The notes under the pieces were generated by a model. That model ran no database searches and was not told the origin of the DNA. It was given only the letters and a program-made list of their open reading frames with translations. The translations under genes were made by a program, and so were the position numbers. Below, one piece after another: positions 41,061 to 44,664 of a stretch of DNA of 64,000 nt. The stretch's first letter is position 1. The number at the start of each line of letters is the position of its first letter. This DNA comes from a virus. Location: the UHGV virus genome UHGV-0073881; one strand, given 5' to 3'.

Positions 41061-42269
41061 ATGGCAGTTGGTGAAATTCAAATTAGTGCATTACCTCAAG
41101 CCTCTCTACCAATCGGGCTTAGTGATATTTTTCACTTGAAGCAGGGTATTGAGGATAAAAGGTGTACACTAGAGCAATTACTTGCTCCACACGCATCTTT
41201 AAAGAATAACCCACACGAAGTTACAAAAAATCAGGTTGGTTTGAGTAGTGTTATTAACGCACTCCAATTAGTTGCTGCTAATAACTTGTCAGATGTTGTT
41301 AATGTTCAGGAAGCAAGAGCAAACTTAGGAATCCTTTCAAGTGACCAAGTTAATGCTCTTATTCAGACTCACATTGATGACAAGAATAACCCTCACAATA
41401 CTACGAAGGGTCAAGTTGGATTAGGTAACCTCCAGAACTGGACATACTCCAATTCATACTCTGAAGATGCTGACAAATATGCTACAGCAAGGGCTGTAAA
41501 CGCACTGTACAGGGCTATTCAGAATAGTTACCCGATTGGTTCTATTCACCTGACTGTGAACCCTGCAAACCCCACTACGTACCTTCTTTGTGGGGGTACT
41601 TGGGAACTTGTCTCTAAAGGTAGAGCACTTGTAGGTTATGATACAGATTCCAGACCAGTTGATTCAACATTTGGTAGTCAGAATGTGACATTGAACAGTA
41701 ACCACTTACCTGCTCACAGCCACTCAATTTACCTAACTGGTGGTACTCACAAGCATGGTAATAGTGTTTCTGTATCAAGCTTTGACTACGGAACAAGAAC
41801 TACAAGTGGTTTTGACTATGGCACAAAGGCTACTAGTGGTTTTGACTATGGAAGCAAATCAACGACTCCATTTGATTATGGAAACAAATCTACGGATTAT
41901 AGTGGCGACCATACCCATACGATTCCAGATTTTCCTGCTTATGAATGGAAAAATGCCACCGACAATGGTCGTTACAGAATGGGGATTAACACTAGAGATG
42001 GGGTAACAGGCTCATCCGGGAATCACGCGCATACAGTCTATATTGGTGCTCATAGCCATTCTGTGTATATCGGTGCTCACAACCACACACTTGATATCGG
42101 TGCTCACAACCATACTTTGGCAATTGGTGCTCACACACATACAGTAACTGTAGACATTGAAGATGCTGACCATACACACTCTGGTACAACTGGTAACACT
42201 GGTAGTGGACAAGCTTTTAGTGTGGAGCAACCTTCCTATGTAGTTTACATCTGGAAGAGAGTAGCTTAA
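41061..42269 (+). CDS. tail fiber protein with tandem FDYG repeats and His-x-His C-terminal repeats
   Basis: four tandem (S/G)FDYG(T/S)K repeats; C-terminal [34 protein letters not shown] resembles metal-binding HxH motifs of T4-type fiber tips. Confidence 0.7.
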   Translation: [402 protein letters not shown]

Positions 42270-42315
42270 TTATTTTTAAGGGGGCTGTAAAGCCCTCTAT
42301 TAAGAGGATTGATAA

Positions 42316-44664
42316 ATGGCTGAATACAAACTAAGTGAACTAAACAGTATTGATACAGTTCGCTCAGACGACCTATTACATTTGAGAGTTATTAAAAGAC
42401 CTGAAATGTTAGGTGACGAAGACCGTAAAATTACTTACGCAAATTTTCTAGCCTCATTTAGACTTGAAAGATTCCTGCAATTATCTGGTGGAACTATGAC
42501 AGGTAATTTGGGAATTGTGAAGTTAACTTACGGTGGAAAAGATTTATTTGACCCTACAAATTCTTCTGAAATTTCTATTGGGGATACTGCAAAGACTTTT
42601 AAAGTTAATGCAAATGGTCTTGCTTTAAAAGTTGCCGATGCAACAAGAACTGCATTTGTTTATCACACTCTGAATAAACCAAGCCCAGCAGATTTGGGTA
42701 TGAGAACAAATGCTGAAAATGATGCAAGATATGCTATTAAGAATGCAGATAACACCTTTGCAGCTAGGCAGATTGTTAATATCAACGGTGCTGGTATTAC
42801 CCTGAAAAGTATCTTCCCAGATGCTGGAGCATATTTTGAAGCAAGAGACTCTAACAATGCTTTGAGATTTACTGTAGGTAACTTGGATGCAAGTTCAGAT
42901 GTTACTTTAGTAAATAGCAAGGGTGCTAAGTTGACTCTTGGGACAAACGCTGTTAGTGTTGATAAGGATTTTGCAATTACTGGTCAAGTATTACCAAGTG
43001 ATTTGTCTAACTTCGATGCAAGATACTACACTCAGAATGCTGCTGACCAGAGATTTGCAAGACTGACTGCAAATAACACCTTCTCAGGTACTAACAATTT
43101 CACAAACTATCAGACAATCACTTCTGATGGGGCTTTGCTGAGATTGAAGCCAGCTACAGCAAATGGTGCAGTGTTTGTTCAAGCTTATGCAGGTTCTGGC
43201 TCAGAGTCTTGGTATCTTGGTCAACCTGACGGGACTAAGCAGGATGTTAACTTGTTTAACCAGATGACAGGTGCAACTATGAGACTCTCTACAGAGTTCT
43301 TCTTCAGTAAAGCACTAAACGTTACTGGACAGGTTAAGCCAAGTGACTACAACAACTTTGACTCAAGATACCTGCCAGCTTCTTTAGGTAGCACACTTGC
43401 TAGGACTAACTCTGCAAATACTTTTAATGGTATTCAGACTATCCTATCTGATGAAACTCCGCTTCTACTGAAGAATAATACACTTAATGCACCATTGTAT
43501 ATTTCAGGGATTAATGCAAACAACATTAGAAGATGGTATCTTGGTAATGGAGACCGTTACAATCCAGAATCCCTATTTTTGTCTAATGACACAACAGGTG
43601 CAGCGATTGTATTAAGTAACACCATTAATATGACTAAGACCATTAATGTTACTGGTCAGGTTCAACCAAGTGATTTGTCTAACTTTGATGCAAGATACTT
43701 CTTAAAAGGTTATTTCATTGGTCAATCAGTTATGACAAGAACGGTCAATGCTCTTGACAAACCAAACACTTTTGACATTAACTACGCAGGGTTTGTGAGA
43801 GCAAATGGTATGATTGATGGGTTAGGCTCTTTAGCTATTCATGTTCCACACTCTGCTGGTTGTGAGCATGGTAGAGGCATTAGTTTTGACTATGGAAGTG
43901 TGGGTTCGGGTCTTGGTCTAGGCACATATGCCTATGATGCAAGTGGTAATTACCGTGGTTCAGCAGAAATCTACACAACTGCCAGAAAACCAACAACTGC
44001 GGAGTTAGGTGTGTACAGTAAAGCAGAAACTGACCAGAGAATTGCAACAGCTATCACAAACTCAACAGACCTAAACAAGATTTACCCTGTAGGTATGGTT
44101 ACACTGTTTGCTTCTAATGTCAACCCTAACGTAGCCTTTGCAGGAACTACTTGGGCTTACTTGGCAAATGGACAGTTTAGAACTATCCGTATTGCATCGT
44201 CAACTGGTGAAGATGTTGGTTCGGTTGGTGGTTCAGATACTAAGAGTATTGCCGTTGGGCATCTTCCAAACCACACGCACAGTTTCTCAGGTACTGTATC
44301 GACATTTGACCACGGAACAATTGGTACTTCACTAAACGGTTGGCATGGTCACTCTGTGAGTGGCTCTACTGCTGCTGCTGGTGCTCACAACCACACATCA
44401 TTTGCACTTGGTTGGCAGAAGGGATGGGGTTTCCCAGCCGGTAACCAGAACATGGGTGAGTATGCAAAACCAACGTCAACTAATGGTGAACACGCTCACT
44501 CATTCTCCGGCACTGCTGCTGGCGATGGTAACCACACTCACACTGTTCCAGTTGGTGCTCACAACCATACTTTCAGTGGTAACACTGGTGGTACGGGTTC
44601 TGGTTCAGCATTTGACGTTACTAACGCATTCATTAAATTGATGGCATGGGTTAGAACTGCGTAA
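42316..44664 (+). CDS. long tail fiber protein with His-x-His C-terminal repeats
   Basis: 782 aa; repeated PSDxxNFDxRY motif three times; C-terminal HTHSFSG...GAHNHT...GEHAHSFSG...GNHTHTVPVGAHNHT. Confidence 0.75.
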   Translation: MAEYKLSELNSIDTVRSDDLLHLRVIKRPEMLGDEDRKITYANFLASFRLERFLQLSGGTMTGNLGIVKLTYGGKDLFDPTNSSEISIGDTAKTFKVNANGLALKVADATRTAFVYHTLNKPSPADLGMRTNAENDARYAIKNADNTFAARQIVNINGAGITLKSIFPDAGAYFEARDSNNALRFTVGNLDASSDVTLVNSKGAKLTLGTNAVSVDKDFAITGQVLPSDLSNFDARYYTQNAADQRFARLTANNTFSGTNNFTNYQTITSDGALLRLKPATANGAVFVQAYAGSGSESWYLGQPDGTKQDVNLFNQMTGATMRLSTEFFFSKALNVTGQVKPSDYNNFDSRYLPASLGSTLARTNSANTFNGIQTILSDETPLLLKNNTLNAPLYISGINANNIRRWYLGNGDRYNPESLFLSNDTTGAAIVLSNTINMTKTINVTGQVQPSDLSNFDARYFLKGYFIGQSVMTRTVNALDKPNTFDINYAGFVRANGMIDGLGSLAIHVPHSAGCEHGRGISFDYGSVGSGLGLGTYAYDASGNYRGSAEIYTTARKPTTAELGVYSKAETDQRIATAITNSTDLNKIYPVGMVTLFASNVNPNVAFAGTTWAYLANGQFRTIRIASSTGEDVGSVGGSDTKSIAVGHLPNHTHSFSGTVSTFDHGTIGTSLNGWHGHSVSGSTAAAGAHNHTSFALGWQKGWGFPAGNQNMGEYAKPTSTNGEHAHSFSGTAAGDGNHTHTVPVGAHNHTFSGNTGGTGSGSAFDVTNAFIKLMAWVRTA

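What the first reader, a model, noticed from the sequence alone, without database searches (positions are those of the whole stretch)
41061..44664. Two tail fibers with His-x-His repeats and internal tandem repeats
Both fiber genes end in GAHxHx / HTHx repeats, the motif type that coordinates metal ions in T4-type fiber tips. The first also carries four tandem FDYG(T/S)K repeats and the second three PSDxxNFDxRY repeats. Repeat-rich receptor-binding proteins are likely host-range determinants and recombination hot spots.
Basis: partly seen in the sequence, partly recalled or inferred. Interest (0 to 1): 0.4.

Follow-up and report, generated by a model that had tools for sequence, protein, structure and literature searches.

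The report
Two phage tail fibres, T4-like tips
These are the short and long tail fibres of a Felix-O1/Moogle-type phage. Both end in the histidine-lined "needle" known from phage T4's receptor-binding tip, an arrangement already published for close relatives, so the finding is real but ordinary.

Summary
ORFs 41061-42269 (402 aa) and 42316-44664 (782 aa) carry 9 and 6 His-x-His motifs; residue shuffles give about 1.5 and 0.4. The first has four 10-residue FDYG units. The three PSDxxNFDxRY motifs are not short repeats: they close three ~110-aa domain repeats.

The window is an uncultivated Mooglevirus-like phage (Ounavirinae). Both C-termini are sequence homologues of the T4 gp37 tip (PDB 2XGF; profile E 1.5e-26 and 3.5e-19), whose seven HxH motifs bind seven iron ions. 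Cryo-EM papers on the relatives Sf14 and Bas63 already describe this short-fibre/long-fibre pair, Bas63 with explicit gp37-like collar-needle-head tips. The upstream 100-aa ORF is the Bas63 long-fibre platform (PDB 9NDY, E 5e-56).

- Outgoing FDYG units and returning IGAHxH units occur in matched numbers (0-6) in 208 of 239 homologues, as expected if they pack against each other in the hairpin needle.
- The ~110-aa repeat number is invariant (3 in 120 of 120).
- Against a ~97% identical relative, DNA identity collapses only at the head cassettes and at a mid-fibre cassette, with breakpoints inside the repeat arrays.
- Head cassettes are shared between short- and long-fibre scaffolds.

Metal binding is inferred, not shown. 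Verdict: a new member of a known kind, low interest.

The parts
40756..41058 (+). Long-fibre platform protein (100 aa). In Bas63 this small trimer, described as T4 gp9-like, sits on wedge protein 1 and is the attachment point of the long fibre.
   Evidence: Full-length match to PDB 9NDY chain S 'LTF platform protein (gp025)' of phage Bas63, E 4.8e-56. phrog_4141 E 6.7e-57. Same position in relatives. Function taken from PMC12609058.
41061..42269 (+). Fibre 1: short tail fibre, 402 aa (equivalent to Sf14 gp52 and Bas63 STF gp26).
   Evidence: ORF. phrog_2097 tail fiber E 4e-126. Pfam Gp10_C aa 155-401. 2XGF homology. Full-length homologues in 297 phage records, including Felix O1.
41061..41495 (+). 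Fibre 1 aa 1-145: N-terminal baseplate-binding part and short shaft, with two NNPHxxTKxQVGL motifs (aa 49-66 and 108-125).
   Evidence: 81-98% identical in seven of the eight closest homologues compared (67% in P0024; 55-58% in the Yersinia/Hafnia phage proteins). Baseplate-binding role is inferred from Bas63 cryo-EM (PMC12609058). Motifs read from the sequence.
41496..41714 (+). Fibre 1 aa 146-218: N-terminal half of the collar domain (T4 gp10/gp12/gp37 collar fold).
   Evidence: Pfam PF21939. Matches T4 gp10 structures 5HX2 and 2FKK, E 2.5e-8 to 3.7e-8. AF2 pLDDT 70-87 here.
41715..41918 (+). Fibre 1 aa 219-286: outgoing strand of the needle. Order: HxH 1, HxH 2, four 10-aa FDYG units (nt 41781-41900), HxH 3.
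   Evidence: Aligned with the T4 gp37 outgoing strand (AHSHS…TDLGTK…FDYGTK…GHTHS).
41919..42023 (+). Fibre 1 aa 287-321: head (receptor-contact) cassette, hypervariable.
   Evidence: 5-22% identity to homologues whose flanks are 94-98% identical. Lies inside the replaced DNA segment 41865-42041 relative to L003. Its only relatives in the set are heads of long-fibre homologues P0141 and P0157.
42024..42179 (+). Fibre 1 aa 322-373: returning strand of the needle. Order: HxH 4, four 9-aa IGAHxH units (nt 42042-42149; HxH 5-8), HxH 9.
   Evidence: Aligned with T4 gp37 NHSHT…[23 protein letters not shown].
42180..42269 (+). Fibre 1 aa 374-402 plus stop codon: conserved C-terminal segment assigned to the collar.
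   Evidence: Aligned with the end of the Gp10_C profile. 58-96% identical in homologues. AF2 pLDDT 72-82.
42316..44664 (+). Fibre 2: long tail fibre, 782 aa (equivalent to Sf14 gp53 and Bas63 LTF gp27).
   Evidence: ORF. phrog_4277 tail fiber, full length, E 0. Pfam gp37_trimer x3 plus Gp10_C. 2XGF homology.
42316..42711 (+). Fibre 2 aa 1-132: N-terminal baseplate-binding domain and first shaft segment.
   Evidence: 75-99% identical in homologues, with many invariant columns. Docking on the platform is inferred from Bas63 (PMC12609058).
42712..43707 (+). Fibre 2 aa 133-464: three ~110-aa domain repeats (133-240, 241-355, 356-464). Each is a short helix plus a beta-rich module and ends in TGQVxPSDxxNFDxRY.
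   Evidence: Alignment of the three units. An HMM built from them finds exactly 3 copies in 120 of 120 homologues. Pfam PF20744 x3, E 7e-41. AF2 beta modules with pLDDT 70-87. Weak match of aa 383-453 to T7 gp17 4A0T.
43708..44040 (+). Fibre 2 aa 465-575: 'mid' beta domain plus a conserved linker helix. This is a second, independently exchanged cassette, distantly like phage Mu tail fibre S/S'.
   Evidence: P0123 shares the tip (90%) but not mid (27%); P0122 shares mid (94%) but not the tip (18%). DNA identity to L003 collapses over about 43623-44018, with a ~60-aa length difference. 8JU3 match: E 5.4e-16 for the mixed family profile, 2.7e-4 for the window-type cassette alone.
44041..44271 (+). 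Fibre 2 aa 576-652: N-terminal half of the collar domain.
   Evidence: Pfam Gp10_C aa 587-736. BLASTP of fibre 1 aa 140-402 against fibre 2 aa 567-782: 29% identity, E 7e-9.
44272..44568 (+). Fibre 2 aa 653-751: needle and head. Outgoing strand: HxH 1, one FDHG unit, HxH 2, HxH 3 (aa 653-693). Head cassette: aa 694-725. Returning strand: HxH 4, HxH 5, VGAHNH (aa 726-751).
   Evidence: 2XGF alignment. Head is 9-25% identical in most homologues but 88-91% in P0123, P0124, P0144 and P0159, and 48% to the head of the Serratia tail fibre protein P0092.
44569..44664 (+). Fibre 2 aa 752-782 plus stop codon: conserved C-terminal segment assigned to the collar.
   Evidence: 77-96% identical in homologues, nearly all columns invariant.

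Best explanation
The two ORFs are the short (402 aa) and long (782 aa) side fibres of a Mooglevirus-like Ounavirinae myophage.

Each is expected to be a homotrimer fixed to the baseplate by its N-terminus. By analogy with Bas63, the short fibre sits on a wedge protein and the long fibre on the 100-aa platform trimer encoded just upstream.

Each ends in a T4 gp37-type receptor-binding tip. The chain leaves a collar domain and runs outward as one strand of a six-stranded needle. It forms a small head of about 32-35 residues that contacts the receptor, most likely LPS core sugars. It then runs back to the collar.

Along the needle axis, each HxH motif from the three chains should supply six histidines to one metal ion, which is iron in T4. 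That predicts 9 sites in fibre 1 and 6 in fibre 2, acting as rivets that hold the thin trimeric needle together.

The FDYG decapeptides on the outgoing strand are not a separate feature. They are the packing partners of the IGAHxH nonapeptides on the returning strand, so the two arrays lengthen or shorten together in whole units. Fibre 1 here has four such pairs and T4 has two.

Specificity resides in the head cassette, and in fibre 2 perhaps also in a mid-fibre domain. These cassettes are exchanged by recombination whose breakpoints lie in the conserved repeat arrays.

Shown here: the ORFs, the motifs, homology to 2XGF, orthology of the platform protein, matched repeat numbers, and the cassette mosaicism. 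Inferred: trimer state, metal binding and identity, the physical FDYG/IGAHxH pairing, and the receptor.
For: Identity of the phage:
- 87-89% DNA identity over the 24-kb morphogenesis/tRNA region to Mooglevirus phages HP1, Sf16 and Sf17.
- The fibre region matches HP1, pEC-M719-6WT.1, Michonne and Moogle, where it is annotated 'tail fiber'.

Tip homology:
- 2XGF E 1.1e-15 and 7.8e-10 for single sequences, 1.5e-26 and 3.5e-19 for family profiles. The alignments put T4's HxH and FDYGTK units onto those here.
- Collar: Pfam Gp10_C in both proteins.
- tblastn also links the needle to T4 gp37 (42% over aa 242-365) and to lambda at about 21.4-21.9 kb.
- HxH histidines are invariant or >=90% conserved.

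Published background:
- T4 has seven Fe ions, and Ala substitution of H929 or H931 abolishes plaque formation (PMC6957217).
- Bas63 cryo-EM shows STF and LTF with collar, HxH needle and head, 7 and 6 HxH respectively (PMC12609058).
- Sf14 gp52 (391 aa) and gp53 (792 aa) form two sets of fibres of 430 and 630 A (PMC11821841).
- The platform ORF matches 9NDY_S at E 4.8e-56.

Matched repeats:
- The number of outgoing FDYG units equals the number of 9-aa spacings on the returning strand in 208 of 239 homologues. Spearman 0.92 over 31 distinct architectures, range 0-6.
- In P0050 and P0051 the pair occurs in both orientations.

Cassettes:
- Head identity is 5-25% next to flanks of 94-98%.
- Against L003, DNA identity falls from 95-100% to 33-52% only over 41865-42041. 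Identical runs stop inside the FDYG array and resume at the first IGAHSH unit.
- The fibre 1 head is related only to heads of long-fibre homologues, and the fibre 2 head to the head of a Serratia tail fibre protein.

Against: - No direct evidence here for trimerisation or metal binding.
- AlphaFold2 could only be run on single chains and gave pLDDT below 50 for both needles and heads. Foldseek on those models recovered only weak gp10 collar matches for fibre 1 (E 5e-3 to 2e-2) and nothing meaningful for fibre 2.
- The FDYG/IGAHxH pairing rests on matched counts and on the published hairpin topology, not on coordinates. The homologues are phylogenetically related, and 31 of 239 do not match; those inspected involve degenerate units or parsing.
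- T4 gp37 needs the chaperones gp38 and gp57A. No such chaperone was recognised next to these genes, so folding may differ.
- The receptor of this particular phage is unknown.
Confidence: 0.85

Rival explanations
1. Fibre 1 is not a fibre but a T4 gp10-like baseplate wedge or tail-pin protein, as the Pfam label (Gp10_C) and some GenBank annotations suggest. On this view the HxH region is just a decorated insertion in that domain.
For: - Its only Pfam hit is PF21939 Gp10_C.
- It matches T4 gp10 structures at E 2.5e-8 and T-even gp10 genes by tblastn (aa 78-239, about 30%).
- The Moogle record KM236239 labels a gene under the match 'baseplate wedge subunit and tail pin'.
- Foldseek's best hits are gp10.
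Against: - The gp10 similarity covers only the collar fold and the shaft before it. The collar fold is one that T4 gp10, gp12 and gp37 are known to share (general knowledge, not tested here).
- The ~110-aa 'insertion' relative to the Gp10_C profile is the part that aligns best with the gp37 needle and head (2XGF E 1.1e-15; profile 1.5e-26).
- Cryo-EM of the orthologues Sf14 gp52 and Bas63 gp26 shows a 430-A fibre (PMC11821841, PMC12609058).
Confidence: 0.04
2. The repeats are a contingency locus: recent slippage or unequal crossing-over changes the FDYG/IGAHxH copy number at high frequency to vary fibre length or host range within populations.
For: - Tandem arrays are visible in the DNA.
- Copy number differs among homologues, from 0 to 6 units.
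- Exact repeats of 17-19 nt exist within the arrays.
Against: - Units are old: 63-80% (FDYG) and 48-78% (IGAHxH) pairwise nucleotide identity.
- Units keep positional orthology between relatives, e.g. P0001, P0002 and P0003 unit by unit.
- One architecture dominates each sub-lineage (36 of 71 and 87 of 120).
- A change on one strand would need a compensating change on the other strand about 80 codons away.
- The ~97% identical relative L003 has the same 4+4 layout and differs by cassette replacement, not by copy number.
Confidence: 0.05
3. The HxH ladder is structural without metal (stacked histidines or hydrogen bonds), or it binds a different metal such as zinc as in T4 gp12, so 'iron rivets' would be the wrong mechanism.
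For:
- T4 gp12, which shares the collar fold, is known to bind Zn through an HxH motif (established knowledge, not tested here).
Against: - The needle itself, not just the collar, is homologous to the gp37 segment in which seven Fe ions are seen (PMC6957217).
- The paired histidines are among the conserved residues of a variable region, as expected for ligands.
Confidence: 0.08

Closest known systems
Bas63 (Felixounavirus) short fibre gp26 and long fibre gp27, with LTF platform gp25 (Sci Adv 2025, PMC12609058; PDB 9NDY for the platform)
   Same: - Same gene order: wedge 2 (489 aa), wedge 1 (285 aa), platform (100 aa), short fibre, long fibre.
- The platform matches over its full length.
- Both fibres are described with a gp37-like collar, a six-stranded HxH needle and a head.
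- The long fibre has beta-helix repeat domains whose number does not vary, and the tips are the most variable parts.
   Different: - Different genus: the window is Moogle-like.
- Fibre 1 here has 9 HxH and four FDYG/IGAHxH pairs, against 7 HxH reported for the Bas63 STF.
- The head cassettes are unrelated in sequence.
- The Bas63 fibres themselves found no match in the PDB sequence search, so no residue-level comparison was possible.
Shigella phage Sf14 (Mooglevirus) gp52 and gp53 (Commun Biol 2025, PMC11821841)
   Same: - Same genus-level backbone: 87-88% DNA identity to sister phages Sf16, Sf17 and Sf19.
- Two fibre genes of 391 and 792 aa at the same position. Both are seen by cryo-EM as retracted fibres of 430 and 630 A.
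   Different: - Sf14-type short fibres (e.g. the 391-aa cluster P0011) have two FDYG/IGAHxH pairs plus one 14-aa HxH pair. That still gives 9 HxH.
- Sf14-type long fibres (P0193, named for Sf16 and listed under species 'Mooglevirus Sf14') are about 55% identical. They have 4 HxH, a 67-aa head and a different mid cassette.
- In the passages read, that paper discusses HxH only for the central needle gp47.
T4 long tail fibre distal tip, gp37 residues 785-1026 (PDB 2XGF)
   Same: - Collar, needle and head topology.
- HxH motifs on both strands.
- T4's own TDLGTK/FDYGTK and GIGAHTH/AIGSHGH units align with those here.
- A similar C-terminal end.
- Direct sequence homology.
   Different: - T4 gp37 is a 1026-aa distal half-fibre joined to gp34-36 and needs gp38 and gp57A to fold. 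Here the tip sits on a single short protein.
- HxH counts are 7 (T4) against 9 and 6.
- Two FDYG/IGAHxH pairs in T4 against four and one.
- T4 binds OmpC/LPS; the receptor here is unknown.
Enterobacterial tail fibre proteins with tail-collar domain (some annotated 'side tail fiber'), and the lambda genome at about 21.4-21.9 kb
   Same: They carry the same FDYG(x4)/IGAHxH(x4) needle block. The returning strand is 70-76% identical to fibre 1. One (P0092, Serratia) has a head related to that of fibre 2. Lambda matches fibre 1 aa 228-365 at 41%.
   Different: Different N-terminal scaffolds (Pfam PF12571, PF03406, PF07484), and they sit on bacterial chromosomes, plasmids or metagenomic contigs rather than in a virulent myophage. 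Many such fibres are known to need a downstream assembly chaperone (general knowledge); none was recognised here.

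Membership tests
T4 gp37-type receptor-binding tip (collar-needle-head, PDB 2XGF) | Significant sequence homology to the crystallised tip across the needle | tested here: met
   Fibre 1: E 1.1e-15 (single sequence) and 1.5e-26 (profile). Fibre 2: 7.8e-10 and 3.5e-19.
T4 gp37-type receptor-binding tip (collar-needle-head, PDB 2XGF) | Collar domain of the gp10/gp12/gp37 fold, split into N- and C-terminal parts around the needle | tested here: met
   Pfam PF21939 spans aa 155-401 of fibre 1, with about 110 aa inserted relative to the profile, and aa 587-736 of fibre 2. AF2 pLDDT is 70-87 for the fibre 1 collar parts.
T4 gp37-type receptor-binding tip (collar-needle-head, PDB 2XGF) | HxH motifs on both an outgoing and a returning strand, flanking a short non-repetitive head | tested here: met
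   Fibre 1: 3 outgoing, then a 35-aa head, then 6 returning. Fibre 2: 3 outgoing, a 32-aa head, 3 returning. T4: 3, 34 aa, 4.
T4 gp37-type receptor-binding tip (collar-needle-head, PDB 2XGF) | Homotrimer with a six-stranded needle in three dimensions | tested here: inconclusive
   Only single-chain AF2 was available, and the needle pLDDT was below 50. Topology is taken from cryo-EM of orthologues (PMC12609058).
T4 gp37-type receptor-binding tip (collar-needle-head, PDB 2XGF) | One metal ion (Fe in T4) octahedrally bound by six His at each HxH level | not testable with these tools
   Inferred from homology and from conservation of the histidines (PMC6957217).
T4 gp37-type receptor-binding tip (collar-needle-head, PDB 2XGF) | Dependence on the folding chaperones gp38 and gp57A | not tested
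   The three neighbouring small ORFs scanned (100, 64 and 124 aa) gave no chaperone family hit. The rest of the window was not scanned. The Sf14 paper reports no Mu-type chaperone (PMC11821841).
Ounavirinae two-fibre module (platform + short fibre + long fibre) | Gene order: wedge 2, wedge 1, platform, short fibre, long fibre | tested here: met
   ORFs of 489, 285, 100, 402 and 782 aa lie in that order. The order is identical in HP1, pEC-M719-6WT.1 and L003. The 489- and 285-aa sizes equal those of the Bas63 wedge proteins (PMC12609058).
Ounavirinae two-fibre module (platform + short fibre + long fibre) | Platform protein orthologous to Bas63 gp025 | tested here: met
   9NDY_S, E 4.8e-56, aligned 1-100 to 1-100.
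Ounavirinae two-fibre module (platform + short fibre + long fibre) | Long fibre with repeated beta-rich domains of fixed number | tested here: met
   PF20744 x3. Three ~110-aa units in 120 of 120 homologues. Bas63 counts five beta-helix domains. The N-terminal segment (aa ~60-132) and the mid domain may be the other two, which was not resolved here.
Genus Mooglevirus | Genome-wide nucleotide similarity to Moogle/Sf14-type phages | tested here: inconclusive
   87-89% identity over 95-98% of a 24-kb segment to HP1, Sf16, Sf17 and Mijalis. The whole-genome identity used for formal demarcation was not computed.

The most novel reading that the evidence does not exclude
The FDYG decapeptide and IGAHxH nonapeptide arrays form a two-strand modular 'ruler'. 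They must be gained or lost as pairs, setting needle length in whole metal-site units (0 to 6 pairs seen).

Their conserved DNA also serves as the landing pad for recombination. That recombination moves head cassettes between short-fibre and long-fibre scaffolds and other enterobacterial tail fibre proteins.

In addition, these single-protein gp37-type tips may fold without a gp38/gp57A-type chaperone. That would make them a simpler chassis than T4 for retargeting phages.
Probability: 0.4. Interest if true: 0.35.

Novelty: new member of a known kind. Interest (0 to 1): 0.2.

Why it matters
For genome annotation, this settles what the two genes and the small upstream ORF are. The database names for these exact proteins are vague or misleading: 'microcystin-dependent protein', 'structural protein' and 'baseplate protein'.

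For phage engineering, the mapped cassette boundaries are practical splice points for head swaps:
- fibre 1: 41865-42041
- fibre 2 mid: about 43623-44018
- fibre 2 needle and head: about 44397-44605

The matched-pair rule for FDYG and IGAHxH units also says which insertions or deletions in the needle should be tolerated.

It does not open a new biological question. The architecture and its likely function were published for Sf14 and Bas63 in 2025 and for T4 in 2010.

Tried and rejected
1. AlphaFold2 single-chain models of fibre 1 (mean pLDDT 58) and fibre 2 (mean pLDDT 51). Needles and heads scored below 50, as expected for an intertwined trimer, so they cannot show metal sites or strand pairing.
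2. Foldseek against the PDB with those models. Fibre 1 gave only weak gp10 collar hits. Fibre 2 gave meaningless single-sheet matches such as OspA, with TM below 0.1.
3. NCBIfam had no model for either fibre, the platform or the 64-aa ORF. Rfam found nothing in 40-46 kb.
4. Self-BLAST did not detect the internal repeats of either protein. They needed motif-anchored alignment and an HMM.
5. My first parser placed the head at the largest gap between HxH motifs. It failed on long FDYG arrays, and the outgoing/returning length regression was ruined by such mis-parses. I replaced it with a parser that counts FDYG units in 10-aa register.
6. A single-sequence PDB search of fibre 2 aa 1-555 found nothing. 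Only family profiles reached Mu S/S' and T7 gp17, and for the window-type mid cassette the Mu match is weak (E 2.7e-4), carried mostly by the conserved linker.
7. The Bartual 2010 and Hyman & van Raaij 2018 papers are not held. The T4 facts are cited through PMC6957217 and PMC12609058.
8. A guessed accession for Bas63 turned out to be another phage. Orthology was shown through PDB 9NDY instead.
9. Promoter and terminator scans in 40.5-45.5 kb were at shuffle level, apart from the hairpin at 45324-45347.

Full report
**What is there**

The coordinates bracket two adjacent + strand ORFs exactly: 41061-42269 (402 aa, "fibre 1") and 42316-44664 (782 aa, "fibre 2"). They follow ORFs of 489, 285 and 100 aa. 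They are followed by two small ORFs (64 and 124 aa) and a hairpin at 45324-45347, after which a minus-strand block begins that includes thymidylate synthase and DHFR genes (names from the relatives' annotation). Short ORFs on the opposite strand inside the fibres have no support, and Rfam finds nothing in 40-46 kb.

**Observation check**

- Fibre 1 has nine HxH motifs (aa 219, 230, 284, 322, 331, 340, 349, 358, 371). Fibre 2 has six (aa 653, 677, 691, 726, 740, 749). Residue shuffles give 1.5 and 0.44 on average and never more than 6 and 3 in 5000 trials.
- Fibre 1 has four FDYG units in a strict 10-aa period (aa 241-280) and four IGAHxH units in a strict 9-aa period (aa 328-363). Both arrays are visible to Tandem Repeats Finder in the DNA.
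- The units are old: 63-80% and 48-78% pairwise nucleotide identity, with longest exact repeats of 17-19 nt.
- The three PSDxxNFDxRY motifs of fibre 2 (aa 227, 342, 451) are about 110 aa apart. They close three domain repeats (aa 133-240, 241-355, 356-464) that are 33-36% identical to the first unit and correspond to three matches to Pfam PF20744. So they are large domain repeats, not short tandem repeats.
- The genes do not end in the HxH repeats. About 30 conserved residues follow in each.

**Origin**

- The 24-kb region upstream is 87-89% identical to Mooglevirus phages HP1, Sf16, Sf17 and Mijalis.
- The fibre region itself matches HP1 (85%), pEC-M719-6WT.1 (90%), Michonne and Moogle only in part.
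- Both proteins are 100% identical to entries from an 89,352-bp metagenomic contig, named "MAG TPA: structural protein" and "baseplate protein" in nr.
- Full-length homologues of fibre 1 occur in 297 phage records across Ounavirinae, including Felix O1.

**What the C-termini are**

- Fibre 1 aa 146-366 aligns with the crystallised T4 gp37 tip (2XGF) at E 1.1e-15, and the family profile reaches 1.5e-26. Fibre 2 gives 7.8e-10 and 3.5e-19.
- The alignments superpose T4's own units on the repeats here. On the outgoing strand these are AHSHS, TDLGTK, FDYGTK, GHTHS and EHSHY. On the returning strand they are NHSHT, DHSHS, GIGAHTH and AIGSHGH.
- T4 has seven HxH motifs and seven iron ions along the needle. 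Alanine substitution of H929 or H931 abolishes plaque formation (PMC6957217).
- Pfam sees the surrounding collar as Gp10_C, with about 110 residues inserted relative to the profile in fibre 1. This explains the "gp10/baseplate" labels in some records.
- In alignments of 42 and 39 homologues, the HxH histidines are among the invariant or >=90% conserved columns, while the sequence around them varies.

**What was already published**

- Cryo-EM of Sf14 (PMC11821841) shows gp52 (391 aa) and gp53 (792 aa) as two sets of retracted fibres of 430 and 630 A.
- Cryo-EM of Bas63 (PMC12609058) states that both the short fibre gp26 and the long fibre gp27 end in a gp37-like tip with collar, six-stranded HxH needle and head. 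It counts seven and six HxH motifs, describes beta-helix repeat domains of constant number in the long fibre, and finds the tips to be the most variable parts.
- It also identifies a small platform trimer, gp25, as the long-fibre attachment point. The window's 100-aa ORF matches that protein (PDB 9NDY chain S) over its full length at E 4.8e-56.

**Repeat grammar (my analysis)**

I wrote each needle as a string of rungs, with H for HxH and F for an FDYG-like unit:

| Protein | Rung string (outgoing \| returning) |
|---|---|
| Fibre 1 | HHFFFFH \| HHHHHH |
| Fibre 2 | HFHH \| HHH |
| T4 gp37 | HFFHH \| HHHH |

- Among fibre 1 orthologue clusters the commonest layouts are HHFFHH|HHHHH (36 of 71, the layout of Sf14-type proteins), HHHH|HH (12, Erwinia and Hafnia phages) and the window's layout (8).
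- Two kinds of paired module recur. One is a 10-aa FDYG unit on one strand opposite a 9-aa IGAHxH unit on the other. The other is a 14-aa HxHxxSGxTSxxGx unit on both strands.
- With degenerate copies counted by register, the number of outgoing FDYG units equals the number of 9-aa spacings on the returning strand in 208 of 239 homologues. Spearman correlation is 0.92 over 31 distinct architectures, with a range of 0-6. The mismatches I inspected involve degenerate units or parsing.
- In P0050 and P0051 the pair occurs in both orientations, again matched.
- This is what a hairpin needle requires if each FDYG unit packs against one IGAHxH unit. It is an inference from counts, not from coordinates, and the sequences are related to each other.
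- Most close orthologues keep nine HxH even though the module make-up differs: two FDYG/IGAHxH pairs are replaced by one 14-aa pair.
- The ~110-aa repeats of fibre 2 are always three (120 of 120).

**Mosaicism**

- By region, head identity to homologues is 5-25% even where the flanks are 94-98% identical.
- Fibre 2 has a second independently exchanged cassette at aa 465-575. P0123 shares the head (90%) but not the mid domain (27%), while P0122 shares the mid domain (94%) but not the head (18%).
- I fetched the DNA of the closest fibre 1 relative (L003) and aligned it with the window. Identity is 95-100% through the platform gene and most of fibre 1. It falls to 33-52% only over about 41865-42041, then returns to 97%.
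- Long runs of identical bases stop inside the FDYG array. An 11-nt island of identity remains at the start of the fourth unit, and identity resumes exactly at the first IGAHSH unit.
- In fibre 2, identity collapses over about 43623-44018 (mid cassette, with a ~60-aa length difference). It falls again in the needle and head (68-70% from about 44296, 42-52% over 44415-44516), and long identical runs resume only at 44606. The collar between the two is at 77-83%.
- The fibre 1 head ([29 protein letters not shown]) has no relative among the 119 other fibre 1 homologues listed. It does match the head of long-fibre homologues P0141 and P0157 (47-55% identity).
- The fibre 2 head matches the head of a Serratia tail fibre protein, P0092 (48%).
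- The returning strand of fibre 1 is 70-76% identical to that of enterobacterial collar-domain tail fibre proteins, closer than to many orthologues.
- Heads are therefore portable cassettes, exchanged among different fibre scaffolds.

**Other domains**

- Family profiles link fibre 2 aa 469-577 to Mu tail fibre S/S' (8JU3) and aa 383-453 weakly to T7 gp17. This agrees with the Sf14 paper.
- For the window's own mid cassette the Mu match is weak (E 2.7e-4) and is carried mostly by the conserved linker.

**What failed**

- Single-chain AlphaFold2 gave usable confidence only for the fibre 1 collar and for the beta modules and mid domain of fibre 2.
- The needles and heads scored below pLDDT 50, and the fold searches were uninformative.
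- Metal binding, the trimer state and the physical pairing of the repeats therefore remain inferences from homology.

**Mechanism**

The fibres are most likely trimers anchored by their N-termini, with the long fibre on the platform trimer. Each presents a head at the end of a metal-riveted needle, with nine predicted sites in fibre 1 and six in fibre 2. The likely receptor is LPS core, as for other Ounavirinae (PMC8594841). Specificity changes by cassette replacement at boundaries lying in the conserved repeat arrays. T4-type chaperone dependence is untested, and none was recognised in the three neighbouring small ORFs scanned.

**Verdict**

The finding is real, correctly interpreted and ordinary. 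It is a new, uncultivated member of a known and recently published kind. The matched-pair rule for the repeats and the mapped cassette boundaries are modest additions that may help fibre engineering.

Noticed in passing
window 40756-41058 (+): This 100-aa ORF has no Pfam or NCBIfam hit and is 'hypothetical' in related genomes. It is the orthologue of the Bas63 long-fibre platform protein (PDB 9NDY_S, E 4.8e-56). The Sf14 paper listed its orthologue as 'Homolog of T4 gp11?' and as not found among the virion proteins.
   Followed up: yes
window 43708-44040 (+), fibre 2 aa 465-575: A mid-fibre beta domain behaves as a second cassette, exchanged independently of the head, with at least two alternative versions. 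The other version carries Pfam PF12604 in relatives. It is distantly Mu S/S'-like and could be a second, lateral receptor-binding site.
   Followed up: partly
The region around them matches many phage tail-protein families (PHROG stretches over aa 94-133) and part of it matches PDB 9ZD7 'short tail fiber gp92'.
   Followed up: no
window 44751-44945 and 44945-45319 (+): Two small ORFs lie downstream of fibre 2. The 64-aa one is phrog_402, and the precomputed Pfam hit for its L003 orthologue is PF26925. The 124-aa one is phrog_4038; it gave only weak coiled-coil-type Pfam hits, is annotated 'putative holin' in HP1, and by position corresponds to Sf14 gp55 ('Holin or lysozyme', listed among virion proteins). 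Function is unresolved, and there is no chaperone signature.
   Followed up: partly
window 45324-45347: A GC-rich hairpin with T-runs on both strands (a bidirectional terminator-like site) sits where the + strand fibre and small-ORF block meets the minus-strand thymidylate synthase/DHFR block.
   Followed up: no
window 16036-21330 (+): A cluster of 23 tRNA genes, including tRNA-His(gtg) and two each of Met, Lys, Gln and Ser, plus three Leu. Such clusters are annotated in related Citrobacter phage records. Whether tRNA-His helps translate the His-rich fibres (6.2% His in fibre 1) was not examined.
   Followed up: no
L003 5256-7787 (ENA ERZ24991165 NODE_255): A phage about 97% identical to the window across the baseplate genes and most of both fibre genes carries an 843-aa long fibre instead of 782 aa. 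It shows the replacement of three cassettes (fibre 1 head, fibre 2 mid, fibre 2 needle and head) between very close relatives.
   Followed up: partly
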